64,000 nt of DNA from Takakia lepidozioides (Eukaryota; Plantae; Bryophyta): contig CM060733.1 of assembly GCA_030704615.1 (NCBI GenBank), forward strand, positions 37,572,001 to 37,636,000, given 5' to 3'. Both the position numbers and the translations under genes were made by a program. Each line of letters starts with the position of its first letter. Within the stretch, counting starts at the first letter, position 1. Below, piece by piece: positions 3,000 to 31,000 of the stretch. Below the pieces are notes generated by a model that had not been told where the DNA came from, ran no database searches, and saw nothing but the letters and a program-made list of their open reading frames with translations.

Positions 3000-3085
3000 A
3001 CCATGTAGCCGAGGGATGGAACGCGATGATCGCAGGATATGCAGGGGCGTGGGATGGAGGCGTTGAGCAAATGATGCAGGAAGGA
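3000..3085 (+). pseudogene. Collapsed single PPR P-motif fragment
   Basis: WNAMIAGYA...EQMMQEG; the DNA matches the neighbouring PPR array apart from short internal deletions. Confidence 0.65.
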
Positions 3086-3372
3086 GGAGAGGAGGAGGAG
3101 ATGAGACGAGGAGAAGCTCGCAACATTCTTGCGAGCTTGCCGTTCTTGGGAGAGTTAGCTTGGTCATAGCAGGCCGTGTTTCAATCTCTGCCTACTCAGC
3201 TACACCGTGGTGGTTCGATCTCACAGACCCATCTGACATTACCTGACTACAGACACAAGCAACACACACAAGAGGTCCTTTTGGGTTGATGGTCGGTCAA
3301 GTCATGACACAACCTCGACAATGTGGTGAGGGCATCTTCTTCTTTGACCTATTTCAACCTGTTTTGCCCTCT

Positions 3373-4532: not shown

Positions 4533-4619
4533 TTTAAATCAGGCACCTCAACCATACCACAGCTTCTAAAAGAGGATCAAGAGAGGGAGTCCATAATGCC
4601 TCTTCTTGCTCTTCTGGGC

Positions 4620-5205
4620 ATGTGAAGATGCTTTGTGAGGCAGGCAGACTGAAAGAGGCTCTACAACCTTTAAACCAAGGAGCATTTCAGTCACATTATC
4701 CAAAGTGGATTCACACCAAGTGTTTTTCTCCTCAACCCCCTTGTGAACATGTATGTTAAGTGCAGGAGCATCATGAATGCACACCGAGTGTTCAACGGAA
4801 TGCCTCAACAAACTTTGATCACGTTGAATATAATGTTGGCAGGATTTAACATGGGTGTGGTAGGAATGCTTTGGAGACCTATGAGCAACTGCTGCGCGAA
4901 GGGGTGAAGCCCAACCACATCACATTTGTTTGTAATGCATGTGCAAGCCTGGGAGCTCTGGAAAAGTGCAAAGAGGCCCATGGTGACATCGTCAAATCTG
5001 GAATTGTACCCAATGTCATTATAAACACTGCCCTGGTGGATTGCATGTATGCCAAATGTGGGTGCATCGAGAATGCAAAGGAAGTGTTTGACAGTATGGC
5101 TGAACGAGATGTGGTGTCGTGGAGTGCGATGATTGCAGGATATGCACAGCAAGGGCGCGGATGGAGGCTTTGGAGACCTATGAGCAATGATGTGGGAAGG
5201 GGTGA
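4620..5205 (+). pseudogene. 5' part of a second PLS-PPR gene, frameshifted
   Basis: LCEAGRLKEAL (typical first PPR motif), then LVNMYVKC..NAHRVFNGMP, NALETYEQLLREGVKPNHITFV, MYAKCGCIENAKEVFDSMAERDVVSWSAMIAGYAQQG; several frameshifts. Confidence 0.85.
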
Positions 5206-7210: not shown

Positions 7211-7564
7211 GAAATAAATTTTTTCTTCTCTATATGGCCCTTCTTATTTGCGTTGGGGGATCATTTTTGCAATATTCTTATGTCGCACTGAACCTCGAAT
7301 GTCCAGTGGACGTTCTCGTCCTTTGTTTCTGGTTTGCTGGATTTTGGCCTGCTGTACGTCCTAGTCAACAAAAAATACCCTGTGGGAGAGTTTCGCCTAC
7401 ATAACATATAGATCACAAGAACAAAATGGGCGGGCACGACCACTGGAGTCTCTGGCTTCCTGTTTTCTCTCATGTTTTTCTTTCCATTTTGTCCCATAAG
7501 CTCTATGAGCTTTCCGCGGACGTTATAAAGCACCATTTCATTTCATTTCATTTCTCTTGTTCTC

Positions 7565-8425
7565 ATGAGGAAACTCTGTTCTGTAGTCTCTTTTCTTCTG
7601 ATTCACCCAGAAGCTGCTGGAATCTTGTTCAGTATACAATTATCTATCACTGAAAAAATATTTTGGGATAGTATCCTCAACTTTTCTTTTTTGGTCATGG
7701 ACTTTCATGGAGCAGGATCTGCCGTTTTTGGTCCACTCAACCCTGCAACTACCCTTTCACAAAAATGGCTTTCGGGCTGCAGCGTCCCCTCGGAGCTGGG
7801 ATCACCCGCAAGACGGCCCTACCTGCTGGCAACTTATGACGCGAGATTGAAATTGGTGGAGGCGTTCCGTTCCTCTCATAAGTACTCCCGCACCATAGAC
7901 AAGCCTCTGCAATCTGACAACCTGGTGCCAATTCCGGATGCAGATAGTTTTTCCTTCTGCTTAGGTCCTCTGGATCTGGCCATTCCCAGCCCACCAGCGG
8001 TGAGCTCTGGTAGCCTCATGATCCCACTCTTTATCTTCTATGAAGGTTGTTCTCCCTCCCATGGATGGGTTCTGTCTGCAGTGAATGCTTACCCTTCTTT
8101 GGTTATGCCTGCATTGAGCCACTCCCGCTCGTGCCCGGTGTCTAGAGTTCTTCATTTCATCTCTTGTTTTTTGGGAGTCCCCCTGCAGTCACTTAGGGAT
8201 TGCAACAAAATCAGGGATATTCAAAACGAGACGAGTAGAGTCGGGGGTGTTCAATCTGATTGTGTTACAATATGGTTTGTTGGTTCTCTGAAAGCTCCAG
8301 CTCCTGCGGGATTCAATTGGATGCCTTTGAGGCTACCTGCTCATCTCGGACTGATGTTCAAAGTCACCAATCTCCAGCCATCAGATCGTGACAACCTCAC
8401 GGGCTTTCAAGCTCTTCCTCCATGA
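7565..8425 (+). CDS. Open ORF directly upstream of the L1 endonuclease (ORF1 position), no recognisable domain
   Basis: 286 codons with no stop (second ATG at 7697). Its TGA overlaps an ATG (ATGA 8422-8425) immediately before the SWNIRG endonuclease start. Confidence 0.5.
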   Translation: MRKLCSVVSFLLIHPEAAGILFSIQLSITEKIFWDSILNFSFLVMDFHGAGSAVFGPLNPATTLSQKWLSGCSVPSELGSPARRPYLLATYDARLKLVEAFRSSHKYSRTIDKPLQSDNLVPIPDADSFSFCLGPLDLAIPSPPAVSSGSLMIPLFIFYEGCSPSHGWVLSAVNAYPSLVMPALSHSRSCPVSRVLHFISCFLGVPLQSLRDCNKIRDIQNETSRVGGVQSDCVTIWFVGSLKAPAPAGFNWMPLRLPAHLGLMFKVTNLQPSDRDNLTGFQALPP

Positions 8426-9789
8426 CCTGGATTCTTGGAATATTAGGGGAATAGGATCAAATGCTTCGGTTCCTAAGAGAGGCAGAATTAGGAATTGGGC
8501 CTCTCAGTTGCTTTCCTTCAATTCTATAGTCTTTTTGCAGGAGCATAAATTAGATGCTAGGAAAATTATCTCGCTAGGGCATTCCATTTGGCCAAGCCCC
8601 ACCTCTTGGTGGAACCCTACTGTTCAGGAAACCAAAGGTGGAACGACAATCCTCATCGCGCCATCTCTGGCCTCCAGCTTTGATAGAGTTGAGATTTGGC
8701 TGCAAGGTCGTGCTCAGTGTGCCTTCTCTTCTTCGTCGTCTCTTTTTCCTTCCACGGCCTTCATCTATATCTACGCTCCTAATTTACCCACGGATCGTAT
8801 TTTATTCTGGAATATGCTGCAAATATTTTGAAGTACCCCCAGGTTACCAAGTGGGTCCTTGCTGGTGACTTTAACATGGTGGATAGTTCTGCTGATAGGC
8901 TAGGCAACTCTGCTCAGAGCCTTTCCCCTTAAGAGCAATCGGCCTGGGACTCTCTCTGCTTTTCGGTTGGTCTATCTGATTCCTTCCTTCCTGATCTTCG
9001 TTCCCTCATATTCACTTGGTCAAATAATAGAGCTCCTTCTGACTTAGCCATGGCCAGACTTGACAAGATATATTATTCCCCTCTCTCGGCAACTTGGGCT
9101 TGCCCTGTCCCTTTGCCCCCTATCCTGCCGGACTTTGATCATGCTATCGATTCAATTGTGTTCAAGCCTCCTGGGATTCATCGGAGAGGTAGGGGCTTCT
9201 TTAAACTGAATCCCGGTGCTTCTCTGATCTCCCACGCTAGTTCAAAATCTTGCTTTAGAATGGAGGACCTCTGGTAATTCCTTTTCTTCCCCCACCATTA
9301 GATTCCTGCACAAATTGGAGGCCACTAGAAAACTTTCCCAATCCCTGTCTAGAGCTCTGCCTTTGGAAAGGGCCAGGAAAGAGAAAGCTCTCCTCAAATG
9401 CATCTCCCATTGCCAATGGCTCATAGAGACGGACAAAGTTGGTCCTATGACCCTTCATTCATATCATTTAGCCAAACACAACTTGTTGGAGCTCCGTTCT
9501 CTCAAGGAAGAGAATATGAGAAGGACGGTGGGGGTTAACTGGTCCTTGCATGGTGAAAAGATGTCAACTTACTTTTTCCAGAAATCAAGGCAACGCCAGG
9601 CTTCTTCACATTTGCTCTCTAAGAAACAAGATGAATGTTCCTCTGTCTAGCCCTAAGTCCATGGCAACTGCGGCACATGAGTATTTCGGTACTGTCTTTG
9701 ATCGGCCTCCTGTCACCGATGGCATTCTAGCGAATAGGCAGTTGGTCCTCCAATCTATCCCCAAGGTTCTTGAGCCACAGCACAATCTA
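8388..9789 (+). pseudogene. L1 ORF2 5' part: AP endonuclease and linker
   Basis: SWNIRG, FLQEHKL, GGTTIL, IYAPN, LAGDFNMV, FTWSN, ARLDKIY, DFDH; frameshifts and stops. Confidence 0.92.
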
Positions 9790-10517
9790 CACTAGAAGAA
9801 AAACGTGGAATAATCACTGGCCCTTTAACCACTACTGTCTTTTTCCACTCTATAACCCACTAGTAACCACTTGCCAGTGGTTAATCCCAATGAAATGCCA
9901 CGGTGGCATCACAGACAGTGGTTGGAAGTGGTTTCAACCACTCAGTAGTCCACGTGTAATAAATTGTTTTTATTTATTATTATTATTTATTATTTATTTG
10001 GTAATACATTTTAATTAATTAATATAATATTCCATGTGGGCGAGTGTAGTGGTACATTGTGAGTGGTTATAGACACCTCAGTGATGGGAAGTGGTTGAAA
10101 CCACTTGCTACTCCACGTGTAATAATTCAAATTTTATTTGTGATTTATGATTTGGAAATATATTTTAATTCATAAATATAATATTCCACATGGACGGGGA
10201 CAGTGCACGTTGATCTTGAGTGGTTAAAGACACTTCATTGATTTGTACCACTTTGACAGTGGTGGAGAGTGGGTGGTGAAAGATACTGCAGTAATTGGAA
10301 CCACTATTCTAGTGGTTTCTCATGAGTGGTTGCCTGCAGACAAGTGATTGGTACCACTTTTTGGGTGATACATGGAAAATATTAAGTGGTTTGTGCAGCT
10401 GTGACAGACTTTGAAAAACAGACAAGTGGCCAGACCATTGTGGCATGATGCTATTGAACAAATGGTTCCAACAATAAACTTTATTCTGAATCTGAAACAT
10501 ATTTGTCACCCTCTGAA

Positions 10518-13500
10518 TCACTTTTGCTCAACTGAAATAGCGGTTGGTTGCACAAACGCCGCTTGAATGGTAGCCAACATATCCAGGTCTTCTTTATTTA
10601 GAGCCGTGGCACCATCTAATGACCTAGGTATTGGCTGATCTGATAAGGTGGACGGTGCCTGAAGGCCATCAAAATCTGCATTTTCTCCAATGTCACATTG
10701 ATCGATGTCCGCCACAATCCTTTTTGCTCTTGGATCCTTCCGAAGGACTACCTTACACTCCGAACTTGGGGACTCATCCGAAAAGAACACCTGTTCAACT
10801 TGAGATGGAAAGATGAACGGCTGATCATTGGTGGGTAGCATCCTCCCAAAATTTGCAAGTAGAAAACCATACGAATCCCGCTTCATTGTAGCATTTTGTC
10901 CAACGAGGTTGGCCCTCACCCAAGCACAACGAAATACAATGGGGTGCACTCGTCCATAATCCAATTTGAAGATCTCTTTGATGACCCCAACGTACTCCAA
11001 TGGTGACATGATTGGATTTCTATCACGCACACTATTTCTGCTCTGTTGCTGGAAGACGGATGCAACTCCGGAATCAAAAGAGACAAGAAGACGACTCTCC
11101 GTGTCATCCACTCGATAATGATTTCCATACGCCTTCATGCCACGAAATGAAGCTGATCTCAATGAGGGGGGAGTAGATACATGAATTACATCCGTATCCT
11201 CAACACCCTGCTCAGAGACATGGGCGTAGACTGCACAGCGTATCCATATCGGTAGGGGTGGAAACTCCAACAAATGAGGAGGGTATGGCGCCGGAAGGCG
11301 GCAGTGACGTCGACGATTGGCACGCCACTCACGAGCACATGCCTCTTTGTCTGCAGTGAACTCTACCTTCTTTGTTGCATACTTTTTGTCACAAAATGGC
11401 AACAAGAATGACACATGTTAGCAATGAAGTGTTGCATTACTTTGCAAAAAATACCTAGCATGAATGATACTTTGAAAACCACTGGATGAGTGAGCAGAAT
11501 GACTTGTAAATGAACATGCTCTTCTAAAAAGTCACTCACTTAGACATTCAGTTACTACAGAAGTGGTTATCATCACGATGAACCACTGACATTTGTGACT
11601 TTGTGGGTGGTTCTATTACACTGGTGACAGTCACAATTGCATTTGAACTTGATATGAATAAGGTGCAATGAAAAGAAGAACTCGCTGCACCCAATGAACC
11701 ATCACATTGGTATTGTTAAGCACATACAAATGTGTTGCATCTCTCTCAACTCCACTCATGTCCCGCTTTTTGCCGACACCTTCCAAGACCTCGTTCTCAA
11801 CCCCTTCCTCCGCATTTGCATCCCAAATCCGCCGTTGAGTTGCATCAAATGATTGCATATACTCACTCATGAACCCCATGGCCTCATCAAGAACATACCC
11901 TGCCGCCATACTCCCTTCTGGCTTTGCATAATTCCTAACGTATCCCTTGAGATCTTTCATGTAACATTCCATGGGATACATCCACCGTGAAGACACCGGA
12001 CCACATGTGTCTAGTTCATCTACGAGATGAACTAGCAAATGGGTCATGACATCAAAGAAAGAAGGGGGGAACTCTTTCTCTAACAGACACAAGGTTATAG
12101 CAACATCCTCACGCAATGAATCTATTTCATTAGGTCCCATACTTTGGCACAAATCCGGCGGAAAATGCGACTCACACGCATAATGACCCCACGTGGGCCT
12201 GGAGCCATGCAATGACGAATACACACAGGTAAAATCTATTGCATTAAAATGTGATAATCATGGGACTTCATACTCGTCAAATGTTTCCTAGACGGGTGTA
12301 TGTGTTTTTGAAATGCACTTGCAAATCCCGAAGGAGTTTTGATAGCCCCCAAAGTATCAAGAAATATCGTGATTTCAGCGGGAGTGAGAACATACGGTGC
12401 TGTTGGTTTCATGATACGTGAAGGGTTCTGTGGATCAGGCCGAAGCCATAGGTGACGTCTGATACCGATTACCTCCATGTCGTTCCTCACCTTCACCGTG
12501 TCCTTCCGTCCGAAAATTGTCTTCAACAAATTTTCACAAAAATTCTTTTCGCAATGTATGGGATCCAGTAAGCAGCGTTGCAACAGATCCTGCAATTGGT
12601 GACACCATTTCAGGAACATTTCGACAGATTGCAGTCCTATACAAATCAGATTCCTTTATGAGCACTGTATACTTCCATGTCTAAAGTGGTTGTGATGCAT
12701 GACAGTCCCTCCTCAGTGGTTCAAACAACTCATTTAGTGCATTATTAGCCTCTCAAGTGATGTCAACAACTTCCTGAGCATCATGGATACTATCTTTTAC
12801 CACTCAACGAGTTATTAATGTGAAGTCCAAATTACATGCAGTACTGCTACTTTACCACTCGGAAAGTAAGAAGTAACCACTACAGGGGCACTACCTTTTC
12901 CATTTACAAAGAACATTGAACTCAAACAAGTACAAGTGTAGGGGATACCTTCCAGTATGGTAAATCCCATAGGCAGCTGCGCCTTTTGATACCATGAACC
13001 TTGGCTGGATGAACTTCAGCATCAGGAAAATCACGGGGGTCAAGGTCATAACCTTTAGCCTCAACACTAGCGGCCTCTTGTTCAACCGGTGTGAACAGAT
13101 GTGGCTTCGCACGCATCTCCACCTGTCCATTGAAGTGTATGCGGTTCCTGTGGTATGGATGGGCCTGAGGGAGGAACCTGCGGTGACCTTGGTAGACAGT
13201 TTGGCCTAGAACTTTTGAGTGTCTTGCATCTACATGAGGACCGCATACTGGACACCTTTTGTAGCCTTTTGTGACACATCCTGCAAGTAGGCCATAAGCA
13301 GGAAAATCGTGGATGCTCCACAGTAGTATAGCGCGTAGTATGAAGGTTCTCTCACCAACAAGTTTGCATATGTCATATGCCCGAACCCCCCTCCACAAAA
13401 CAAGTAACTCCTCCATCAGTGGTGCTAAGTACACATCTATGTGCTCACTTGTAACTGATTGCTTTCCTGGAATCAAGAGAGTAAGCATGACAAAGAACTT

Positions 13501-14639
13501 CTTTGTAGTGAGTCAGGGAGGTAGGTTGTATATCAGCGTCAACACTGGCCATGTTGACCAGCAATTGTTCTTATCACCAAACGGGTTGACTCCATCAAAG
13601 GAAAAACCAAGCCTTACATTGCGAGGCTCTGCTGCAAAGTCGAGCCAAGTAGCATCAATGTGTTTCCAAGCCTTTGAATCAGCTGCATGGTGCACAAGGC
13701 CATTGTTGCTTGCATTTCGATTGTGCCAAGTCATTAATTTTGCAATAGAGAGCATCTATACATACGCAAAAGGCGTGGTATCAATGGAAAATGGCAAAAC
13801 ACCTTAACAGGTACCTTGGATCTCCCCACATTTTTGAATCGGGCGCTTTGACACTTGGGGCAACTCTCTGAAGCTTTCAAGTCCCCCCTAAACAACACAC
13901 ACCCCTATGGGCAAGCATCGATCTTCTCATAAGCAAGCCCAAGCTTGCTCACCATGGTCTTTGCATGGTAGAAAGATGTGGGTAGTACGTTTGGTTGTGG
14001 CAACAAGGTTTTCTGCAGCAAAGAGAACATTTCATCCGCAAAGCCATTCGTAACCCCATGTGTTGCGCATAGATTCATTATAAGCATGGTGGATGCAAGC
14101 TTAGAGGATTTACAGCCTTCATATAAAGGTAGACATGCCTCTTCCAATGAGATGGGATCATTAGTGTGAGAGTCCCCACCCGCAACCGGGTCATGGGCTT
14201 CTGGTGGGATGTTTGTGTCACCGGGAACATCTAGGTCATCTAATTCCACTTCTGCCCCATTTCCAGTTTCAGTTGTGTCTATGATCTGAAAGGTCTCTTG
14301 GATCATACGCTGTACCTCAACATTTTTGTCCAATTCTCCCTATGTCTGATGATTTGCTAAAGCTACGTCGTCACCAACCACCACGGCCGTGTCTTCCCAT
14401 TCATCGTCAGAAGCATGCCTCCTTGCTCCTCTCCAGGATCTGAACGCAAGGGATCTATGATTGGCCATTAGATATTTTCTCACTGTCTCTATAGAGACCG
14501 GTCGTCCACCCTTACAGTGATTGCAAGGGCATCTTAACTTGTTGAGACCATACTCTCGACACCGCGCAACCTCACGCAGAAAAAGAGCATCGTCGCGTTG
14601 TTGTAATCTCAGCACGGCAGCTACTCTGTCAAGCTCCAT
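10518..14639 (-). pseudogene. CACTA TnpD-like transposase (transposase-associated CPC motif, Transposase_21, DUF4218, DUF4216)
   Basis: LRCPCNHC; RNVRLGFSFDGVNPF; YNLPP; IDVYLAPLMEEL; DFPAYGLLAG; SCLWDLPYWK; HLLVHLVDE..GPVSSRWMYPME; DQPFIFPSQVEQVFF. Introns at ~12630-12945 and ~11345-11680. Premature stops at 14340, 13905, 13513 and 12236. Confidence 0.95.
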
Positions 14640-16162
14640 GATGCTAAGGAATTCCTTTCCTGGTATGAGGGGAGAATCAAGATTAATATACCAAGTCCCT
14701 AAAAAGCAAGAATTTCAACAATCTACTGTACGTCTCTACTCATAGAGTTGAAAGGTACCACTTTCTAAGTGGTTGTTTCACACCTCATATTTCTACTTTA
14801 GAACTACAAAAAGAGCGAGTTGCCTCTTGTCATCTACAAACCACCTTCTTAGCAATATTCAGAGTGGATTGAATCACTACGTGGTGACCTAGGAGACCCT
14901 ACTTCTAGGTACAAGTTATAGTGCTTTAATATAGGAGGTCTTGAAGTTTGTGAGCAGTAGCCCAGCCCATCATATGCATTTGTAGTTAGCACAAAGCCGT
15001 TAGCCCATTTGTTGTCATGTGCTTATATCTACAGCCTCCTCCATCGCTCAATCTGAATGTGCACTTGTAGGGTTTAGTTAGGCTCAGTCTCTTTTCAATT
15101 TTGCTGAAGGAGAGTGCAGGTTCTATGGCAGCGAGTGAACGCAGCCCAAAACATTTGAATGACGATGGCACCGGAGGCGATTTGGCAAGAGCACCTGGTT
15201 CAGCAGAGAGTGAAAGTGGAGGAGAAGAGGATTCACTTCCCCAAGAGAATGCGATGGTGGAATATGAACGGTGTCGTGCTATCAGGGTAGCTGAAAACAA
15301 AGCTTGTTTGTTGGATTAGAGCTCCAAGGGCACTGCACTGTAAGTCGAAGCTGTCTCCCTGCTCGAATACTGTTCATGCGATAATTCATTCCCTCCTTCA
15401 TTGCATCGTTCCCTCCTTCCCTGCACTTGCAATGCGATCGCAGCACCTGAGCCGAAAGATGGCCTCCCCTGCGTTGCTTCCACGCCAGACTTACGTCTGT
15501 TTCATGAAAGGTAGTTGAGGTCCCAAGAGCCCCTAGAAGACTGCCATATCAGCAGGATGTAGTGGTTATGGACACTAGTGTAGTGGTTAATATGTACCCT
15601 AATGATTTTTTTTTAAAAAAACGACGTGTCCACATCCCATCTCTGCCATTGGATGGACGTGGACCGTCAGATGCAACCCGGCACTTGGACAACCTCATGT
15701 CTCTCACGCGAGCGTACTAAGTGTGCGTGCTTCGCTTTTTGAGCTTCCTGGGCTTGTGAGGGCGTTTTGTTGTGAGTGACCCGGGCGATTGTGGGAGAGT
15801 AGAGAGAAAGAAAGACCCCGCGTACTGCCCGCTATGTGTGGAACGGCCTAGTGCGAAGGAGTACTCGTTTGAGGGAGAGGAGTCATGTTCACATGGGGGT
15901 GGTGGAGAATGAGTCCAACACCTTGGAGACCAACCCGGGGGAGGATAGTGGAGCGACTCCTAGTGCTGACTACTCAGCAAAGAGCGAGAGCACGGACGAG
16001 GAGGAAGACCAGAGTGCTGAGAAAATTGTCGTTCGCATGACTCCTTCCAAGTGGCCCTTAAGGACATCCACCCCAACCAAGGAGGGTAACAAGCCCGCGG
16101 TGGGATCCCTAAGACCCCTTTTGTCTCTGTCTCTATCTCTCTCCCTCTCTCACCCTTAGTTC

Positions 16163-18190
16163 ACATAGCTATGTCACTGTTAATGGACAGAAGTCCAACT
16201 TCTTTGACATAGACCAAGGTGTAGCTCAAGGATGTACTCTCTCCCCTCTGCTCTTCAATGTTTTCATCAATCAACTCCTCGAGGATGTGGAAAGTGAGGG
16301 ATTTGGGTTAAGGGTGGGTGATACCACCATACCAGCCCTTATGTTCGCGGATGACTTCGCAGGCATAGGAGATACTCCAACCAATCTCCAGGAGTTGATT
16401 GATTGCGCAAAGAGATACTTTGATCTTTGGGGGCTAGAGGCTAATGTCAGCAAATGTGTAGTGGTAGCATTCAACGACAGAGGAGAGGGAGGAAGTGATC
16501 TTAAGTGGCAGTGGGGTAGCCAAGAGATCCCGGTCCTCCCTTCCTACACTTACCTGGGTGTTCATTTTTCCTCCAATTGTAATTGGGATGCACATATCCG
16601 GAAAGTTGCTCAAACTGGCAAGGGCAAAGCTCTGGGGCTCACTAAATTTTTCCACTACAGAGGGGTCAACTCTAAGGTTAAGAAAACAATGGTTTGTCGC
16701 GTTATTAGACCTGCCTTGGAGTACGGATCTGCTAAATCCATTGCAAGCACAAACAAAGGTAACCTGGTCTGGCTTCATCCCTTCCCACAGCATTTGCTCA
16801 TAGGTCTCCAAAGCCTCCAGACCACACCCATGCTGGGCATATCCAGCAATCATGGCATTCCATGAAAATACATTTCGCTCAGCCATTTTGCCAAACACTC
16901 CCTTTGCATCCTTCATACTCCCGCATTTGGCATACATGTCCACAAGGGTATTGTTCAGACTCATATCTGGTACTTTCATGATGTCAGCATGTACCTCTTT
17001 GCCCTTTTCCAAGGCTGCCAGGCTAGCACAAGCATTACAAACACAAATAAACGTCACCTGGTCGGGCTTCACCCCTTCCTGAATCATTTGGTCATATGTC
17101 TCCAAAGCCTCCATCCCACAACCAAGCTGGGCATATCCTGTGATCATTGCATTCCATGCCACAACATCTCGTTCACCCATATTGTTGAACACTCCCTTTG
17201 CATCCTTGATGCTACCGCATTTGGCATACATGTCCATGATAACTCCAACCAGGCTAAGTGGGGGTGCTTAAGGAGTGTATGTGCTCCAAAACAGCCAATG
17301 TGGCTATTCGGGGTGAGTTTGGCATTCCGTCCTTAAGCTCCCGACGAGATGAATTCAAGGTCAGATGGTGGGGTCAGCTGCAACATATGCCCAAGACCAG
17401 ATATCCTAAGTTAATTGACTCTACATCTTGGAAACAAGACCGCCCTGTCAAACATGCTAAGTCCTGGTAGAAGAGATTGCTAGAGATTCTCAAGGACCTG
17501 GACCTGGATCCGCAAGTCTTGACCCTGCTGGATAAATCTGACTTAGAGGCTGTAGTGTCCAAAGCCATGTCTGTTGCCATGAGATTGTCTGATGAAAATG
17601 AAGTTAGGCAAAAAACTTCCTGAACTTGTTTCCAGTCAATGACATGGGGGAGGACATCTTGGATGACCTCAAGGGTCTACCCACTCTCGGCACTAGACTG
17701 AAATTTAAACTCAGGGCAGGAAGCCTACCTTTGAACAGCGAACAGAAGCAGAGAGGAAAGGGAGAGTGCAATTGCCCGTTGTGTGGGCAATCTGAAGACA
17801 ATATTCATTTTCTGATACACTGTCCGGGGTTCTCTCACCGAAGAGACGCTCTCTTCAATTCTATCAAGGGAATTGTGCCTGTACCCCTGTTTACCAACTT
17901 TTGAAAGTCTCGAGGCTGAGCCAAAAGCCCAGGCCCTCCCGAGGCCTAGATTTTGGGCAAATCACACACAACAGATTGATGCTTGTGTGAAGGGATTTCT
18001 AGAGAATATCTGGAAAACCCGGATTAATTCTTTATATGAAGGTAAGTCTTACTACCAACGTCAGCCCCTGACAGAGGTAGGTTCTATTCCTTTTGTGAAC
18101 TAAGAAACTGGGCGCGGAATTGAATCGCTAGTTGGCAATTCAATTGTCAATGGCCACAAGGCTACGGCAAACAACATCTTATGAGTACAA
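16163..18190 (+). mobile_element. 5'-truncated RTE/RTEX-like LINE (family A, longest copy) with an internal inverted PPR insert
   Basis: QGVAQGCTLSPLLFN, MFADDF, YTYLG, PALEYGS, AIRGEFG, CPLC..HFLIHCP; ends TTATGAGTACAA. TSD TCTCACCCTTAGTTC (16148-16162) / TGTCACCCTTAGTTC (18191-18205), at the end of a TC-rich tract. Confidence 0.92.
16731..17237 (-). pseudogene. Captured PLS-PPR segment (S-P-L-S-P-partial L), frame open
   Basis: DMYAKCGSIKDAKGVFNNMGERD / VVAWNAMITGYAQLG..EGVKPD / QVTFICVCNACASLAALEKGKEVH / ..LVDMYAKCG..MAERN / VFSWNAMIAGYAQHG..MKPD. LINE sequence flanks both sides. Confidence 0.92.
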
Positions 18191-21100
18191 TGTCACCCTT
18201 AGTTCCTCTCAGATTGTGGAAGCAATTGAGCATTTTCATGATGTGTAGGGTTTAGGGTAGGGTTTTGTGTAAAGCAGAGGTAGAGGCAGAACCGAGCAAG
18301 GTTTAGGGTAAATCTAAGTGAGTAAGAGGCTGGGGTGTATGGCGGAGGAATGATCTTTGGAGTGATGAACTGATGGAGAAGGGAGTGTGTGGGGCTGGAC
18401 TGAGAGTGAGGGCGAGGCTGGAGAATGGCTCATGAAATATATATGCTTACAGTAACTGAGATGGTGATTGGTTTATATAACCAAGCCTATTACTACTATG
18501 ATTGGCTTGTGAACTTAAGGCATGATTGGTTGATTGTTTCATTTCAATCCTGATATGCTTTGAGCCTGGTTCCGGAGATTTATCTCCAGACCTGCAATCT
18601 GCTTTTGTGATGAGTTTACAATCTGCATATATGGTGGTAAATGTTATATATCAAACCAAGGTTCTTTCCTAAATGTGAATGACCTGGAAACCTTGTTAGA
18701 AAGATGAATGGCTCACGAGTTGGACTATGTATGGCTTGACCCATGGATTAAATTTCAAAGGGTTAGAACATGTGTTAGGGTTTTAATACTGAATGGATGT
18801 GGGACATTGCTAGGGCACCAGAGCATGACATTTCATGCATTCACGCCATTGGATGCCAAACTTTTTTTGGCACGTTGGGCCAAGGTTTGTATGTGTTCAC
18901 GAACTGCCAACCTTGTTCGTTGCCCGGTTGACCTTATTTTCCATAATTGCTAACTTTGTGGGGTGGAGGGGCTTGTGTTAGGCTGCATCAAAGTGAGCAA
19001 AGGAAGGGGGGACTGAGGCTGTGGCGAATGCTACTGATCCACCTACGACATGGGTGCAACAAGGCTCGAATGGCCCATGGGTGCAATCCAGAGGTGGGCA
19101 AACATGGTTGCAGCAAGGACCACCTACCTCGCAGCAGCCCATGGCCCCTCCACAAACGACAAACATGTGGTCATGGATTCCAAGTGGGTCCAATAGAGGA
19201 CCCCAAGGAGCTTGGGTACAAGGAGGTGCCCAAACTTGGGGCCCTCCATGCAACACTGCTGGTGGGCAGTGGGCAGGCCCCCTTTTAATGGTGCTGCTCC
19301 TCCATTCACCCCCCCTGCTGGTGATGATCGAGATTCCACACAGCAAGGGGATGTGGCGTCGCAGGCTGCAAACAAAAAAAGACAAAAAAGGCTGGCTGCA
19401 AAGGAACATAAAACTGATGCGAAAGCCCGCAAATCTGTTGGGCTGAAGCCGCACAAGGTACGACTAAGCTCTAAGGGGGAAGTAGACCAGGGGTGTGAGG
19501 GAAAGGATTACTGGTAGAGCTCCTTGCGGGGATTCTGCATCAGATATCTTGATCCTAGCATTTTGCTAGCAGACAAGCAGGAACCCAGTGACATGGCCAA
19601 GGTTAAGGAATCCATGGAGGCGGAGTTTGAGTACTACCCTAAACTTGTGAGCATTGACAAGTTCCAAAAAACATGTGGGAGGATTATAAAAGTACACCGC
19701 CAAAAGTTAAAGCTGGTGTGGTTGGCTGGAGGTCCATGCCCTCCGAGTGTAGAGTCCTGCCATTGGGATGCATTGGTGAAGTACTGGGATTCCCCCAAGG
19801 GCAAGAAAGAGAGTGAGAACATGAAGAGAGCACGATCCAATGTTACCAACCCATCGAGGGTTGGAAGAGCAGGGTTGGCTGGACAGGCCCGACGCTTGGT
19901 ATTATGAATATCTGTACCACATTTTAGTATATGTATGTACATATATACACATATATGTGATGGAGTAGGATACCATCTCTGCCCTGTGAGGTGGTTGCAA
20001 ACTGTCACTACAGTCATGTCTTTGTAAACGCCCCACTTGTTTGGATGAATAGGGGCTATTTTTTTTTATTTGTTGTGGCCCTGGTAGAAGAAAGAGAGAG
20101 CACGAAGTCCAAGCATCACTGAGCTGGCACACGCATCAAAGGCGGACAAGGGTTTTCGCTCCCAGTCAATTGGAGGTGCACAGGTAAATGGCGCATGGGT
20201 ATTTTTTTTTTGGTTGCATTCATTTTGTTGGAGCAGTAGTCAGGCCATGCGGGCTGATTATGTCTCTTTCTTTGGCTGTATAGGGAAGGGGCAGTGCGAT
20301 GCAGTCTCGACTGTCATCCCTTGAGGGCAGTGTGCTTGCCTTGGCAGACGTTCAGATCCCGACGATTGAGGGCGAATTGGCCACTATAAAAGCAGAAGTT
20401 GCTAAGGCTTCTGCGGACAATAGCAAAAAACTGGATGCATTGATGGCAATGATGTTGGGAATGTCAGCAACTGCCCCTCCTCCAACTACTATCCCAATAT
20501 GTACTATTATTGAACCTTGCGATTCCGACGCAGGCTTGGGAGGCAAGACTGCTACGGAGAAGGTGGTTTGTGCACCTTCACCGTGCAGGGAGAACCTCTT
20601 GAGGTTGGGGAAAAGCCAAAGTCATCTGCCATTGAGGACCTTGTGGTGACCCAAGTAAAATTGGGGCGCAAGGGAATTTCTGATAAATTGCCACGTAGGA
20701 AGGGAGGTGGAGCTGGCGGGACAACAATATTGGCTGCTGGTGAGGACATCTGCTCCACCGAGAGTGCTGGTAAGGGTGACAGTAGGGGGTTGGCAGATCA
20801 GCATGTGAAGCCAACTTCCCCACAGAAAGAGGTACGCCCTCAAAGACTTTATCTTGGTTCCTATCCTTGGGCTTTCTATTTTTGACTCTGAAAACATTTC
20901 ATGAATGATCTATTTATTGGTGTGTACCATGAATTCTATGCATCAGGTATGGTAAGACGTACTCATGTACTATACCTTGTTGTTTTGTTGGCATATAGAA
21001 GGGGACTAAAGCAGAGGACCCTGCCCCAGCCATCGTGAAGGGAACTGAGAAGAAGTACATGAAAAAATGAGAGCGTGTAACCAGAGCCACTGCTGCCAAA

Positions 21101-22903
21101 GGCACAAAGTCCTTGACTGATGCAAATGGTGACATAACACCAAGTTCTAGCGGGAGTAAGAGTCAGGTGGGCCTTTAGGAGGCACCTCTCTACACATCAG
21201 TTTCCGTACTAGAGGTGAGCATGCATGCACCTGTTGGCTATCAGTTCTGCACAATGTGGCCATTTACATGTTGGGTACTTCAAACTATTAGTAGATGCAT
21301 TGCTAAATGTAACTGCTAAGGGGTGTTGGGCATGATGTTTGTAGGCTGAGAAAGCCGCTCTTGATACTGCCACCGACAGTGCACCAAGTGCAGCGCCTGC
21401 AAAAACAACCCCCAATTATCAACCCCCTGCCACAGTGGCAGATATTCTTATGTTACCAAAAGTACTCTACACTTTCAGTGATTATTTATAATGGGCGGTC
21501 CTCATTATCTAGTTTTCGTGGTACATGTATGTCTTCATGGGTTGATTAATGTGGGTTTTATGGTGGGTGCTGGGTGCAATTTAAGTTGAAGGACAAAATC
21601 AGCCTGTATGATCCTCATTTACCGTGACACAGGGCTGCCAGTGGAATTGTCACTGGTGTGCCTGGCAAAGATACATATCACTGTCGTGTTATACCTGAGG
21701 GATTGTGGCGGGTTGAGGTAAATGATATCTCCATTGCCAATTGTGTCTTGCCTCACCCTAACGAGGAAGAGGTCCCACCGCAAACAATGTTGGAGGATGT
21801 CGTTGGTCTGAATTGTCTTGGCCAAAGAAGAACATGAAGAGGGCTTAGATTTCGTTCGCCCGGGCATAGATATTGTTGGCAGTGAGAAGAAAGCAGGAAA
21901 GCAGTTCAATGTTCCTAACATGCATGCGGAGACGCCGTGTAGAAATTAGGCTCTTCATTTTATCATGCCTGGATTTTGTTGACAGTGTTCCAGCACTTAA
22001 CTCTCTGGGATTCTATTCTATTTTGTGGAGCTCGAAGCCCCAATGGTACTTCTTTAAACACTACACTAGTGGTATGTGTTCCTCTAGTCATGTTCATAAT
22101 CACTTGCACATCACTAAAAGTGGTATAATTTAAAACTGTGGGAGTAGCCAAATGCACACAATTGCATACATTATTACTCGTATAGTGGTATAAGTAGTCA
22201 CATATATATTACTGTACTAGTGGTATGAATTCCTCCAGTGGTATTCCTAATCATTTACACACCACTCTGTTAGTAATCACTCCAATCCATAGTTCCCACT
22301 CAGAGAGACACCATGAATGACTCAAATAGCTTACACACCACTCTGTGGGTAATCATTCCAATGACCTGCTGAGAGACGTCATCCACTCGAATAACCACTG
22401 TGTGAGTGATATTGTATATTCTCAGTTTTCATAGACTGACTCTATGAGTCATTTTTTGATCTCTCAACAAGTGGTTTCGGAAGTCATTGAATTTTTCACT
22501 CCATCCATTTCGTAGCACTGACACACGACACGTGTCCATGCTGAGAATGTCGCCATGCGTCGACATAATCTCCAATATCATCCACGGACCACCGGCTTAC
22601 ACGTCTCCACCACAAAACGGAAGTGGTTACTTTACCACTATGACACGTCATAAGTGGTTGCTTTACCTCAGTGACACGTCACAGTGGTTAATTTACCACT
22701 GTGACATGTCAGCGTACAGGTGGACCCGGATGTGAGTGGTTCGAACCACTGTCCTTAACCACGGGTGCCACGTAATGTCTTTTACCACTCACTTGTCCTA
22801 ATCCACTAGTTCTTCATCACTCTGGGGCCAGAGTGGTTTAGTGTTTTTTACCACTCAAAATGAGTGGTTAACAGAGTGGTTATTCTGCGTTTTTCTTCTA
22901 GTG

Positions 22904-25620
22904 CTAGTTCTCAATGAGCCATTTTCAGAAGATGAGCTTCTTAGAGCTATTCAATCTCTAGCTCCTCTCAAGGCCCCTAGTATTGATGGCCTTCTAGTAG
23001 AATTTTCTTAAAGCCCTTTGGGAGAATTAAGCTCTGTCAAGCTCTGACTTCCTGCAAATGGCGAATGATATCTTGGCTAAAGAAATCATGCCATCGCAGA
23101 TTTCGCAAGGTGTTATAGCTCTTATTTTCAAGAAAGGTGAAAGAGACCTCATCCGTAACTACATGCCAATCACCTTGAATTCCACTTATAAAATTATTGC
23201 GAAGGCTCTCGCCTATGCGTCTCCAACCATTCTTGCCAAATCTGGTGCGCCCTAAGCAGACGGGATTTATGAAGAATAAGATGATTTTAGATAATGTTCT
23301 CCTCTCCATCGAGGCTTTGCATCTAGCCAAGATTAATAACTGGCCTCTTGCAATGCTTTTACTGGACTTTGAGAAGGCATTCGATAATGTCGACTGGTCT
23401 CTGTTGCTGGGAGTTTTCCTGGGTCAAAATATTGCTATTCTCTGCATCTAGCAAAGTGCAGATCAACGGTGTCATATCCCCATCCTTCAAGCTGCATAGG
23501 TCGGTGAGGCAAGGTTGCCCACTCGCTCCCTTCCTCTTTCTTTTGGCCGCCGATTCTTTGACCCACCTGCTAGCCAACGATCACTCCATTCAGGGTCTTC
23601 AAATCCCTAGATCTTTGCCAGCCCCTCTCTCTGTCAACACCTCTATGTATGCAGACGATACTGTTCTCCTGCTGGACAACTCTTCGACAGCTAACGTCGA
23701 AGAAACTCTCTTGGCTCTCTCATCTTTCTGCTCGGCCTCTGGCCTTAAAGTTAATTGGAAGAAGTCCGTGGGTATTCTGTCGAAGCTTTCCATTGATGCT
23801 CCTCTATCACACATTGCCCCATGGGGAGATAATTTGGGCTTGCGCTGGTTACAGGATGGTCAATCACATACCTTGTTAGGCCACCTGATTGGACATGGCC
23901 TGTATGATCTTCAGCGTTTTGAGGCGGTTCTGGCCAGGATCAACCAGAGTCTTTCTTACTGGTCTTCCCTTCATCTGTCCATCACAGGAAGAGCTATTGT
24001 GGCAAATCAAGTTATTCTTGCTTCTTATTGGTTCTCGGCTTCAGTCTGGTATCCTGGGGCTCAAATAATTAAGCAAATCCAGACTATGACTAGGAACTTT
24101 GTGTGGGGAGGCACTTTAGCTTCCCCCAACAGAAGAGCCTTGGACAGCTGGTCCCAGATTACGCAAAAGAGGAAATTTGGTGGCTTGGGTATCTGTGACC
24201 CACAAACCCAAATAATCTCCCAGCTTGCCAAATGGGTCCCGAGAGTTCTTACAAATCTCTCTGCCCCTTGGAGCTTAATTGTTAGATGCCACATCCTAGA
24301 CGCCCATCCGTCTCCTGGTGCTTGGCCATAGTCTCTTAGATGGATTCTTCAGGGGGGAAGATCTCTCAAAGCGGGGGCCAATGGCTCAAAGGCTTGGCAA
24401 TCGATTTGGGTAGCATGGATGCATGTGAGACCTCACCTATTCCAGACCATCCCCTCTAGTGGAGGAGGTCTTAAGGCAGCTAGTATTTGGGAACTTTAAC
24501 GCAGATTCAGAAGTCCTTATTAAGTGCTCAGATAAGTGGGCTTCTTGGGAACATGTAGGGGTTTCGAACTTCTGTCACTTCTGGGAGGATGGGGCTTTCC
24601 TCCCGAAACATGTTGCTACTGTAGCACTATCGATGACGAAAAGCGACCGCCTGGGACACCATCGTCTCGAACATTCCCCCTCGCTGGCTCTCTATATGTT
24701 CCCTTCCACTCAATCAAAGGGCACTCCCATCTTGGCTGGGTAGGGGAGCTTCTGGACTGTTTGTGGCCTTCTATGCAACCTCCAGGGACTCTCAATCGCT
24801 CTTCGGGTTGGAATTCTCTTTGCATACTGACAGAGCCTTGGTCTCTCCCCACCCTGCATCTCATCAGGAAGCCGATTTATTTCCCATTAGGGTGTTTTCG
24901 GTTACCTCCGGGGCTTGTGATCCATAACCCCCCCCCTCAACCTTGCGCATTACGATGATTCTTTCATATGCTTTCTCTCTGCTCCTCTTAGGTTGCTTCT
25001 GTTTGACCCCGCTGAATGGCGTTGGATGGATAAGAAGCATACCCCCTTTTTTGGGTTCAAGGTGAAGCTGACTTATTCTCTCTTGCGGCCTCTAATGGCG
25101 CTCTTCGCTAGCAAATGGAACTCTAAGTGGAGGCATCTGCCTACCCTCCCTGCAGATTGGAAGTCCATTTGGGGAGATATCTGGAGAAACTCCAGTTCAT
25201 TCCTGGTTCCTCTGGCTTATGCTCGATATGCCAGGCAGGCCAAGATGAATCGATAGAGCACTGTCTGGTGTCCTATCCCCTAGCTGCATTCATTTGGTCT
25301 CGGGTTTGCAGATTCTATCAGTTTTGGAACCCACAGGCTTCCACGAATGCATCTGTCTTGCTTTTGAATTTACATATGTTGTGGAGCACTTGCCCCGTGT
25401 GGGTAGTTCTAAGGGCCCATACACTCTAGAGCATATGGAAGAGCAGATGCTCGCTGGTTTATGGGGGGACTCAACCTTGTATGAAATTATTGCTGCATAG
25501 GATACACTCCGACCTCATGACTGAGGCACGGAAAGCATGGCGGGTTTTGGGTGCAGCTCTTGCTAGATGAGCGCAAAGAAGGAGGCTGCAACTTCTCTCT
25601 TGCTTTGATAACACCTGGGG
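22904..25620 (+). pseudogene. L1 ORF2 3' part: reverse transcriptase and C-terminal zinc finger
   Basis: LIFKKG, YKIIAK, QTGF, LLDFEKAFDNVDW, SVRQGCPLAPFLF, MYADD, GLKVNWKKS, GGLGI, CSIC..ESIEHCL; frameshifts. Confidence 0.93.
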
Positions 25621-25969
25621 GAAAGGCGGACAACACTGCTCAAGAACATCAGAATCAGAGGTTATCTGGAACAACAAACTCCCGCCATGTTGGCAGCTCT
25701 ACTAGTGCGCAACAATCCTTGCAGCAGGAGGACTTGGATGTGAATTGGCGTCACAAGCACCTGAGGAAGGGCAAATCTAAAGCGCACCTTTCTTTCGACA
25801 TCTCTTCTAGATAGTCTCATTACTCCCTTCTCCTCTTCGCAGATCCATCTCGAACTCTGCCTGGTAGTTCTGGGGCCTAGGGGCACTGTCCCACTTTTCC
25901 TCCTCATGGTTGTTTCTCCGACGTTGTTTTTTCCTTGCTATTTATTAATAAAATTTCAGGGCGCCGTCC

Positions 25970-28049: not shown

Positions 28050-31000
28050 GAAGACATGTTGAGCAATACGAGCACACCATCTCCGGATGTAAAGTTGTCA
28101 GTGGATAATGGGGTTTCTCGATCCAGTGTTGAAAAGAGGTTTGATGATGCTGGTGTACATCGAAACTGGACAGTTGTTCATCTTCGTGGACCAAAACCTG
28201 AACCTCGTTATTATGTGAGTTCCATACCAACTATTCCAGAAGGTTGTCTAAGGGCATATATTTTGGACGGTCCCTACCTTTTTTATGAGCTTGCACAGGG
28301 GTATTTGTGATTGTTTCATGTGTCGCCTCTGGTTGGTTTGTCGCAGTTGGTAGAACTTCGGCAAGCTCATAAGGTGGTGGGGCCCTGAATGTAGTCAATT
28401 TTGTGTAATGAGGGATGAAGAGGGCTGGTGCAGCATGCTGCGACAGTGGTGGGGCGAAGAATGCTTATTGCTGGCGGTGACACTGCTTCTGGACCTATCA
28501 GTGACGTGCAGGTTCTTTTTCTCTCTTTTGCTGATGGTGGGATCTGTTGTGCCATCCAACCTCTTTGTAGCCATGATGATCTGAGAAGGAATCCATATTA
28601 TGTAAGTATGTGAGAGAAGGTCGATAGTGATATTAAGGTACTCATCTTGCGGTAGCTTGTAAGGACCCTAGGAGCAGAAATGGAGGAGAGAACCATCCGG
28701 GGGCCCAGGCTTTGGTGGTAGGGGTTGGGCACAACTTAGGCTTACTGGGGTAAGGGGACCCGTCTTTGTTAAGGTTGGTTTGTCTTTACTGAGTTCGTCA
28801 AGGAACGATCTTGGCATCAAGTTTATTGCAGTTAGCAGGCTATACTGCAGACTTGGCTCTTCCGACAGCCTACTCTCAAGTCCCCACATTGAGTGCGAAA
28901 ATCCCATGCCTAACGTGATTCACACTGCAGTACAATATTGAATGCAATCTGATATACTCTACCTTGAGATTAGAAGATTAAAGAGCAAGGAAGGTTATAA
29001 ATGCTGCCCTTTCTCCATGAGGAGGCTGCCACTCAGTACTGCCACTATTTCTATCATCACTAGTAGGTGCCACAGACTGGTTTGTCAACACAACCTTAAA
29101 AAATAAAGGCGTCACCCTGAAATGCATCAAAGGCATAGGTACCTGGCGGCCAACTGTGCTGGTGTCAAACCAAGACATGGGGTCAACAGAACAGCTTTTT
29201 GTCAAAAAGGCCTTCATCTGTGCCATAGGTGGGCCTGCTCATCATAGACTAACCCAGGAAAGAACAGACGGCAAGGGCTGCAAGGCAGTGATTAAAAAAC
29301 CCTAAGGCATGGAGGAGAGAACTGAGGTGGTGGAAGGGTGGTGTGGGGCCTTGGGGGTGGGTTTGGCAGATGCTCCACCTTGGCAAGCTGATTTGGTTGG
29401 AGGCTGGTGTGGGACCCTCAGCACCCAGCCAAGGAGGGTTGCCAAAGACAGCAACTGCAGAGCATCTGCCTGCATGCAGAGGCCATAGTCTGGTGAGACC
29501 ACATCTGGCTGCTGTGTTACTTGCTGAGGTCTCCGGTTTGTTACATTGATAACTCTTGTTATGATGTCTGCAGATATCATGGGGAAAAACCGTGCTTCTG
29601 GTTGCTGGACAGATGGACCCTGTGGTTGATAGGGTTCAAGGTGGGCCCAGGACTTTGCTGAAGCTGATTTTAAGGAAATAGGGGTTGAGTGCCATGTTGT
29701 AGTTGCATCACTCCACTTTGTTTGTGTGCACACGGTTCAGCAAAAGTCATGTTTCAAGTTTCAACATTGCAGTATTTGCTACACATAATCATGTCTGGTG
29801 ACCATGTCTTAAATTACTAATGATAGCTTGGGGACTGGCAGTCTGGTCCTTTGATGTGGAGATGGAGTGTTGGAGAAAAGTTGCAGCTAAAGGGGAGATT
29901 CCGGTATGTCTCCTTCTCTGGATGACACTTTGGTAGCAGGTCTGTTACTGTGGTTTTCTCTTTGTTCTATACTGCTCCTGCTTCATGCCCTGGTGTGGTC
30001 CTTGCTGTGTCTTCTTGTGTTCTATGTCGGGGAGTTCATGGTCCAGGTCCAGGTGGAGTGGGTATCCATAGAAGGAGAGAAGTGTACTCATGCACTGTTT
30101 TTCCGTGTTCTAACTCTGCAGTGGGAAAATGAATTGACACCCAAAGCTTTGCATTTAGCTGTTTGAACCGCTTTTTGTATATGTGCATCCCAGTTGCAAG
30201 TGGAGGAAAACTCAACAACAAGATATGCGTAGGAGGAAGCACAGGGATCTCTTCGCTGCCCCATGTCCATTTGAGATCCCTCCTCCCTCCCCACAATCAT
30301 TAAGGCCACCACCGCGCATTTACTAACATTATCTTCCAGTCTCCACAGGTCAAAGTATCGCTTTGCACAATCAATCAACTCCTGAATATTGGATTGGGTA
30401 TCGCCTAGGCCCGCGAAGTCATCCAAAAACATTCAAGCTGCCATGGTGGCATTTACAGACCTTTAACTCAAATCCCTGGCTTTCCACATCTTCAAGTAGC
30501 TGATTGATGAAAACATTGAAGAGCACCGGGGAGAGGGCACAACCTTGAGCTACACCTTGGTCAATGGCTTGAGGGTCAGCCTCGAGATTATGGAAGTTGG
30601 TGAACAGAGGTGCAGGGACTATGTTCTTAATGGTCCTGAAGAGGGTCGCTCTCTTTTGAGAACACCTCGGACATTGTATCAGAGAATGGATATTGTTTTC
30701 AGGCTGCCCGCACATTGGGCATTCACAATCTCCCTTTCCTCTCTGCAGCAGACTCCTGCCCTGAGTTTAAATTTCTGTCTAGTGTGCTGAGGGTAGGTAG
30801 GCCCTTCAGAGGAGAGAGAGAGAAGAAAGAGTCTAGGTGGGCCTGCAGTTTTTGTGTGAGTAAAGGATGTCTATGGGACTGGGTGCAGGCAGCAAGGAGT
30901 GGGCAAAGCGTGACAAGAGCAGGGAGCATTTTGATTATGTTTGGGGGGGAAGATGCCAAGGGGCATAAACTAAGTGACTTGCACATCCTGGACCTGAAGT

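What the first reader, a model, noticed from the sequence alone, without database searches (positions are those of the whole stretch)
16163..18190. PPR modules captured inside a LINE, inside a mobilisable CACTA: a possible vehicle for PPR spread
Seen: an open ~507-bp PLS-PPR segment (about 5.5 motifs) sits antisense inside the LINE. LINE coding stops at EYGSA and apparently resumes only a few codons later, with no obvious duplication at the junctions. The LINE keeps its TSD and the enclosing CACTA keeps perfect termini. The PPR is the same subfamily (EALETY.QM, M.ERD, LAALEKGKEVH) as the array 12 kb away but is clearly not identical. Known: PLS-PPRs are organellar RNA-editing specificity factors with large, mostly intronless expansions in some early land plants. 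Inference: capture occurred by template switch onto an antisense RNA or by break-repair filler. The cassette could be moved in trans by CACTA transposase. Plus-strand transcription would yield antisense PPR RNA or siRNA able to hit a whole PPR subfamily.
Basis: partly seen in the sequence, partly recalled or inferred. Interest (0 to 1): 0.78.

Follow-up and report, generated by a model that had tools for sequence, protein, structure and literature searches.

The report
One-off PPR scrap in dead LINE
A 502-base piece of a PPR gene sits backwards inside a broken retrotransposon, which itself sits inside a broken DNA transposon; read depth suggests one or two copies, so it is likely a one-off DNA-repair patch and not a vehicle that spreads PPR genes.

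Summary
The nesting is real. A 502-bp antisense PPR fragment (16735-17236) replaces 7 bp of a 5'-truncated LINE (16163-18192, 13-bp TSD). The LINE lies in a CACTA element (9790-22903, 16-bp perfect TIR, 3-bp TSD), which lies in an L1-type LINE. Read-derived contigs show the uninterrupted LINE form in 5 of 5 runs laid. Both junctions occur letter-perfect in one run at depth 87.5 and 90.7, against 55-89 for divergent contigs taken as single-locus. So this is not an assembly chimera, and it is not amplified (one copy, two at most). The fragment starts and ends mid-motif, has a 9-bp deletion, and cannot be a gene. The LINE and the CACTA transposase both carry stops and frameshifts. No donor was found, and transcription was not testable. 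Best reading (0.6): ectopic filler copied into a double-strand break after the LINE inserted. Main rival (0.27): a double template jump during reverse transcription; a scrambled family copy at 30085-30809 keeps this open. PPR sequence inside plant transposons is already in print.

The parts
16735..17236 (-). 502-bp PLS-type PPR fragment (partial S-P-L-S-P-partial L). No start, no C-terminal domain, 9-bp in-frame deletion at 16973. Replaces 7 bp of the LINE.
   Evidence: motif classes assigned by eye
16163..16734 (+). 5' piece of the 5'-truncated LINE: C-terminal half of the RT domain, ending EYGSA. It starts near residue 860 of a 1368-aa relative.
   Evidence: Pfam RVT_1; tblastn of P0002
17237..18192 (+). 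3' piece of the same LINE, with C-terminal CxxC-HxxxxC region and 3' end. Carries stops, small indels, a deletion after 17259 and a 28-bp palindromic insertion at 18118-18145.
16150..16162 (+). Left copy of the 13-bp LINE target-site duplication, at the end of a CT-rich run
18193..18205 (+). Right copy of the 13-bp LINE target-site duplication
9790..22903 (.). CACTA element: 16-bp perfect TIR, TSD CTA, sub-terminal ACCACT repeats
10518..14714 (-). Decayed Tnp2 transposase gene (Transposase_21, DUF4218, weak DUF4216). At least three in-frame stops and one frame change by eye; introns not modelled.
15803..21900 (+). Likely second CACTA gene (weak Transposase_24 match at 19518-19904, below the Pfam cut-off), with stops. 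The LINE may lie in one of its introns (inferred; bounds approximate).
7529..25960 (+). Older L1-type LINE interrupted by the CACTA; its frame reads through the empty site (bounds approximate; L1 label recalled)
2950..5205 (+). Degenerate PPR array with stops, frameshifts and internal duplications; 72.5-82.6% identical to the insert, so not the donor
57306..58140 (-). Shorter copy of the same LINE family with its own TSD and an open C-terminal frame; about 95% identical over 789 bp; too short to cover the PPR site
30085..30809 (-). Scrambled, older copy of the LINE family: C-terminal part placed before the RT part, then about 25 nt resembling the 3' end

Best explanation
A 502-bp PPR fragment replaces 7 bp in the middle of a dead, truncated LINE copy and shows roughly single-locus read depth; it is likely filler copied from another PPR locus during repair of a double-strand break after the LINE had inserted. 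Shown: the nesting order L1 > CACTA > LINE > PPR; the 7-bp loss; no duplication or poly(A) at the insert; antisense orientation; ends in mid-motif; both junctions present in read-derived contigs; decay of all three layers. Inferred: a break at about 16734-16741 of the integrated LINE; slight end trimming; extension of one end on an ectopic PPR template (genomic DNA or a cDNA, not resolved) by polymerase-theta-type end joining or SDSA; rejoining. PPR repeats are very abundant in this genome, so they are a likely accidental template. The cassette is probably inert; a CACTA transposase acting in trans could in principle move it, but moving it would carry only a fragment.
For: The uninterrupted form 16734>17237 appears in 5 of 5 runs laid (X1, X5, X6, X8; X7), with 7 letters between. 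The LINE resumes 7 bp from where it stops, with no TSD. Orientation is opposite to the LINE, whereas published LINE-RT chimeras join parts in the same orientation (PMC2104539). Junction contigs in X1 have depth 87.5 and 90.7, and interior contigs 65, 90.2 and 97.1. The 8 divergent X1 contigs listed have depth 55.3-88.8 (mean 67 by hand). Deletions with templated insertions, often from a different donor molecule, are the described footprint of plant TMEJ (PMC10923293 passages); gene-containing filler by SDSA is described in PMC3445842 (passages). The first 7 insert bases match the reverse complement of the lost LINE bases at 6 of 7, like a local templated filler; this is only suggestive (chance 0.05, post hoc).
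Against: No donor locus was found (best protein identity 64% and 58%; no genome held), so junction microhomology and insert age could not be measured. The family itself appears to jump templates: a scrambled copy at 30085-30809, and 8 of the 15 joints shown are LINE-to-LINE skips or back-jumps. Junction depth is 1.3 times my single-locus yardstick, so two copies are not excluded; two X1 contigs starting at 16761 differ by one base (depth 65 and 53.4). The junction contigs have 29 and 27 bases on their short side, just under the tool's 31-base rule for a bridge, and no record spans both junctions. The passages read do not give filler lengths, so a 500-bp filler rests on recalled plant literature.
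Confidence: 0.6

Rival explanations
1. Co-insertional double template jump. During target-primed reverse transcription the LINE RT left its RNA at 17237, copied 502 nt of an antisense PPR RNA or a DNA strand, and returned to the still-bound LINE RNA 7 nt further on. This gave one LINE-PPR-LINE insertion within a single TSD. Still a one-off.
For: One 13-bp TSD encloses the whole unit. Double jumps are described for LINEs in a fungus and in mouse (PMC2104539). A scrambled family copy lies at 30085-30809, and LINE-LINE joints occur in X1, X5 and X8. A second deletion lies 23 bp from the right junction. Most of the insert is covered by contigs of single-locus depth in X1, so no identical donor remains; this fits an insert about as old as the LINE copy (1.6-3.8% from family contigs).
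Against: It needs an antisense PPR template. Published chimeras join parts in the same orientation, with a full-length RNA copy at the 5' side and three different RNAs. A TSD around the whole unit is equally expected for a later insertion. The scrambled copy could also come from tandem insertion plus deletions.
Confidence: 0.27
2. The chimera is an amplified or active unit: CACTA transposase in trans has copied it, spreading PPR motifs or making antisense RNA or siRNA that regulates a PPR subfamily.
For: CACTA termini and TSD are intact, and the CACTA family is multi-copy in X1 (summed depth 844-8367 on the flanks). 22 of 480 distinct 21-mers are identical to the neighbouring array, and short stretches of the insert match high-depth contigs in the two RNA-guess runs. 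siRNA from captured fragments acting on donor genes is described in maize (review PMC13317346, passages).
Against: Junction depth fits 1-2 copies. None of the 15 joints shown (of 268) links a LINE position to a PPR position. The fragment cannot encode a PPR protein. Tnp2 is broken, and the LINE is 5'-truncated.
Confidence: 0.06
3. Sense PPR mRNA was reverse-transcribed into a break in the LINE, primed by the LINE's plus-strand end at 16734 (endonuclease-independent, RT-mediated patch). This gives the antisense orientation without needing antisense RNA.
For: The orientation fits priming from the left end. The LINE end GCTA also occurs 7 nt beyond the homology boundary in the insert's internal paralogous motif. 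The RT family is abundant and present in RNA-guess runs.
Against: The 4-base match is offset and of chance size. There is no poly(A), and no lost intron can be shown. It cannot be told apart from DNA-templated filler without the donor.
Confidence: 0.05
4. Assembly chimera between two high-copy repeats.
For: Both components are high-copy. No single record spans both junctions, and no long reads were available.
Against: X1 contigs cross each junction with 0 differences (16706-16790 and 17210-17290). The TSDs of the LINE and the CACTA both match.
Confidence: 0.02

Closest known systems
Filler DNA / templated insertions at repaired double-strand breaks in plants (TMEJ; SDSA gap patching). PMC10923293 and PMC3445842, passages read.
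   Same: Small deletion at the site, foreign gene-derived DNA inserted with no TSD, possible short flank-derived filler.
   Different: Donor and microhomology were not established here; the host site is a dead LINE nested in a CACTA.
LINE template-switch chimeras, including tripartite ones (Magnaporthe MINE/WEIRD-MgSINE-MGL; mouse B2-U6-L1). PMC2104539, abstract, background and passages read.
   Same: Foreign sequence fused to a 5'-truncated LINE within one TSD.
   Different: Here the foreign part is antisense, an internal fragment, and sandwiched between two contiguous parts of the same LINE.
Pack-CACTA and other gene-capturing transposons (review PMC13317346, passages read)
   Same: A host gene fragment lies between intact CACTA termini and could be carried in trans; captured fragments can be siRNA sources.
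   Different: The capture is inside a nested LINE, not made by joining neighbouring CACTA ends. The element keeps a decayed transposase gene, and no amplification is seen.
PPR domains among LTR-retrotransposon-captured genes in rice and sorghum (PMC3726574, passages read)
   Same: PPR sequence found inside a plant transposable element.
   Different: LTR elements in grasses, where PF01535 was frequent but under-represented; here a non-LTR element.
PLS-class PPR expansions in hornworts, lycophytes and ferns; retrotransposition proposed for seed plants (review PMC11897456, passages read)
   Same: P-L-S motif order, and a genome very rich in related PPR sequence.
   Different: This piece is a non-coding scrap, so it does not explain how whole PPR genes multiply.

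Membership tests
DSB-repair filler (TMEJ/SDSA templated insertion) | Insertion accompanied by a deletion at the site and no target-site duplication | tested here: met
   7 bp lost, none duplicated
DSB-repair filler (TMEJ/SDSA templated insertion) | Microhomology with the donor, or short flank-templated filler, at the junctions | tested here: inconclusive
   Donor unknown; inverted 6/7 match to the lost bases has chance 0.05
DSB-repair filler (TMEJ/SDSA templated insertion) | Donor locus remains elsewhere in the genome | not testable with these tools
   No genome held; protein searches found no close donor
LINE template-switch chimera | Whole chimera flanked by one TSD, with a 5'-truncated LINE 3' part | tested here: met
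   13-bp TSD; truncation
LINE template-switch chimera | Parts joined in the same transcriptional orientation | tested here: not met
   PPR coding strand is opposite to the LINE; an antisense RNA template is untested
LINE template-switch chimera | Foreign part is a full-length RNA copy at the 5' side | tested here: not met
   Internal, mid-motif fragment with LINE on both sides
Processed retrocopy inserted by TPRT | Poly(A) tail and its own TSD | tested here: not met
   Neither at the insert ends
CACTA/EnSpm element | CACTA...TAGTG termini with TIR, 3-bp TSD, Tnp2 domains | tested here: met
Autonomous CACTA | Intact transposase | tested here: not met
   Stops and a frame change inside conserved domains, read by eye, introns not modelled
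Pack-CACTA | Captured host DNA mobilised with the element (several loci carry the same capture) | tested here: inconclusive
   Junction depth fits 1-2 copies, not amplification; cut-and-paste movement without copy gain cannot be seen
PLS-class PPR gene | P-L-S motif triplets | tested here: met
   Pfam PPR hits; motif classes by eye, no PLS-specific profiles available
PLS-class PPR gene | Start codon/targeting peptide and a C-terminal E/DYW region in one ORF | tested here: not met
   Fragment ends mid-motif on both sides, within LINE sequence
RTE-X clade LINE | RT phylogeny with named RTE-X elements | not tested
   Label recalled from motif resemblance. Relatives have endonuclease + RT domains but carry no clade names. 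RTE-X occurs in Marchantia (bioRxiv 10.1101/827881, passages).

The most novel reading that the evidence does not exclude
This very abundant LINE family has a jump-prone reverse transcriptase that routinely hops onto other templates and back. In a genome full of PPR repeats it splices PPR motif blocks into new places and so helps shuffle PLS arrays; this locus and the scrambled copy at 30085-30809 are two footprints of that process.
Probability: 0.08. Interest if true: 0.62.

Novelty: new member of a known kind. Interest (0 to 1): 0.17.

Why it matters
As found, it matters little: it is one more gene scrap inside nested, decayed plant transposons. It would matter if a genome-wide count showed many LINE-PPR chimeras, because how PLS-PPR editing factors multiplied and shuffled motifs in non-seed plants is open, and a jump-prone LINE RT would be a testable cause. 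The present data point to a single accident.

Tried and rejected
Genome-wide junction search: impossible, no genome held. Donor search: two protein searches gave at best 64% identity (Diphasiastrum complanatum, among the 120 listed of 7838) and 58% (105 listed); no donor. Transcription: no RNA holder on record was listed. X5 and X8 are only guessed to be RNA, are contigs, and have no strand. They and X7 had no cover at 16748-16768 at 98% likeness, and X5 and X8 had none on the CACTA flanks; these blanks are no evidence either way. Neighbouring array as donor: rejected, 72.5-82.6% identity and no shared 31-mer (0 of 472). Retrocopy by normal TPRT: rejected, no poly(A) or TSD. GCTA and GGGT micro-matches between the LINE site and the insert's internal paralogous motif: offset from the junctions, not used. 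Earlier findings of the scan: five look-ups returned nothing. Literature searches for this arrangement listed no paper whose title or abstract start describes a PPR fragment inside a LINE; the library lacks most subscription papers, and no supplements were read.

Full report
Observation. The region holds four nested layers. An L1-type LINE (about 7529-25960; label recalled, RVT_1 hit) is interrupted by a CACTA element at 9790-22903. The CACTA has a 16-bp perfect TIR, 26 of 30 matching bases and TSD CTA, and the host frame reads through the empty site. Inside the CACTA is a 5'-truncated LINE at 16163-18192 with a 13-bp TSD. Its protein match starts near residue 860 of a 1368-aa relative that has endonuclease and RT domains. 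Inside that LINE, on the opposite strand, is an open PPR fragment (PPR_2 E 2.6e-32). The window comes from a plant rich in PPR sequence. A non-seed plant is my inference; the best protein identities were 64% or less, to lycophyte proteins, which only shows that no close relative is in the database.

Junctions. No genome was held, so I used read-derived contigs from coded runs (5 of 11 runs laid). The uninterrupted family form joins 16734 to 17237 in X1, X5, X6 and X8 and in X7, with 7 letters between, mostly TATGGGT. The insert is therefore 16735-17236, 502 bp, replacing 7 bp, with no duplication and no poly(A). By eye it reads partial S, P, L, S, P, partial L. The L motif lacks 9 bp relative to family contigs (loose ends at 16973). 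PPR homology reaches about 16739. The first 7 insert bases match the reverse complement of the lost LINE bases at 6 of 7, with a post hoc chance of 0.05 near the break: a hint of local templated filler, no more.

Is it real, and is it amplified? At 98% likeness, X1 has a contig over 16706-16790 (0 differences, depth 87.5) and one over 17210-17290 (0 differences, depth 90.7). Interior contigs have depth 65, 90.2 and 97.1, and one 64-bp piece has 135.9, likely shared with a paralogue (32 of 1397 pieces shown). The short sides are 29 and 27 bases, just under the tool's 31-base rule, and no record spans both junctions. X1 may be the window's own sample, so it is not independent. Even so, exact contigs across the junctions mean the reads hold them, so misassembly is unlikely. 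As a single-locus yardstick I used the 8 longest divergent X1 contigs: depth 55.3-88.8, mean 67 by hand. The junctions are 1.3 times that, which fits one copy, perhaps two, and not an amplified family. Against a clean single-copy reading, two contigs starting at 16761 differ by one base (depth 65 and 53.4). The X1 contig over 16836-16942 also lacks a base at 16912, while an X6 contig over 16782-16947 equals the window. Summed depth over the LINE and PPR parts is 1e5-1e6 at 85% likeness. That is no copy number, but it shows both families are very abundant. None of the 15 joints shown (of 268) links LINE to PPR positions.

State of the carriers. The LINE copy differs by 1.6-3.8% from four family contigs (3/182, 5/193, 4/201, 10/264). 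It has stops and frameshifts, a further deletion after 17259, and a 28-bp palindromic insertion in its 3' end. The CACTA Tnp2 gene has Pfam matches but at least three in-frame stops and a frame change by eye, introns not modelled. The element could move only in trans. The LINE may lie in an intron of the CACTA's plus-strand gene (inferred), so read-through antisense RNA is conceivable but untested. The PPR array at about 2950-5205 is 72.5-82.6% identical to the insert and is itself degenerate; it is not the donor. No donor was found.

Mechanism. The best fit (0.6) is filler copied into a double-strand break after the LINE inserted: small deletion, no TSD, antisense orientation, mid-motif ends, and resumption at almost the same base. 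Passages of PMC10923293 describe deletions with templated insertions, often from other molecules, as the footprint of plant TMEJ. Passages of PMC3445842 describe gene-containing filler by SDSA. The main rival (0.27) is a double template jump by the LINE RT. PMC2104539 (abstract, background and passages) shows such jumps, but with parts in the same orientation and a full-length RNA at the 5' side; neither is met here. In its favour, a family copy at 30085-30809 has its C-terminal part placed before its RT part, and 8 of 15 shown joints are LINE-to-LINE skips or back-jumps. RT-mediated patching from sense mRNA (0.05), an amplified or regulatory cassette (0.06) and misassembly (0.02) take the rest. 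On sequence alone, siRNA from the insert could pair with relatives (22 of 480 21-mers identical, 137 of 482 within two mismatches of the neighbouring array), but no RNA data bear on it.

Comparison and novelty. Gene capture by CACTA and other elements, and siRNA from captured fragments, are reviewed in PMC13317346 (passages). PPR domains occur among LTR-captured genes in rice and sorghum (PMC3726574, passages). PLS-PPR expansion in hornworts, lycophytes and ferns, and retrotransposition in seed plants, are summarised in PMC11897456 (passages). RTE-X is my recalled label for the LINE and was not tested; RTE-X LINEs are reported in Marchantia (bioRxiv 10.1101/827881, passages). Searches listed no paper on this exact arrangement, within a library that lacks most subscription journals.

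Verdict. This is a new instance of a known kind, a gene scrap in nested dead transposons; interest 0.17. The boldest reading still open is a jump-prone LINE RT that shuffles PPR motifs genome-wide (probability 0.08, interest 0.62 if true), and it is testable by a count in the full assembly.

Noticed in passing
window 30085-30809 (-): Older copy (72-78% identical) of the same LINE family in scrambled order: C-terminal zinc-finger part, then RT part, then about 25 nt like the 3' end, with CT-rich flanks. It suggests template jumping, or tandem insertion plus deletions.
   Followed up: partly
window 18118-18145: 28-bp imperfect palindrome (22 of 28 self-complementary) inserted in the 3' end of the focal LINE. 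It is absent from the copy at 57306-58140 and from family contigs, and has no second copy in the window.
   Followed up: partly
window 32574-32775, 35874-36593, 50763-50935, 60860-61003: Several short 3' fragments of the same LINE family, mostly beside (CT)n runs and some with tandem 3' ends; suggests a preference for CT microsatellites and repeat insertion at the same site.
   Followed up: partly
window 2950-5205: Degenerate PPR array of about 375-bp units that carry an extra internal duplicated block of about 84 bp, with stops and frameshifts.
   Followed up: partly
window 16912: The X1 contig lacks one base here (a frameshift in the PPR fragment), while an X6 contig equals the window: a polymorphism or a polishing effect.
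   Followed up: no
window 17281: The window lacks 6 bp that all laid X5 and X8 contigs carry; X1 shows high depth for the shorter form, hinting at a LINE subfamily amplified in that sample.
   Followed up: no
window 57306-58140 (-): LINE copy with a TSD of at least 15 bp, inserted just after a kinase-like exon (about 58180-58500, identified by eye), apparently in an intron.
   Followed up: no
window 25969-26682: Element with 77-bp terminal inverted arms (82% alike) and internal 32-42-bp tandem repeats, next to the end of the L1-type LINE; possibly a non-autonomous DNA transposon.
   Followed up: no
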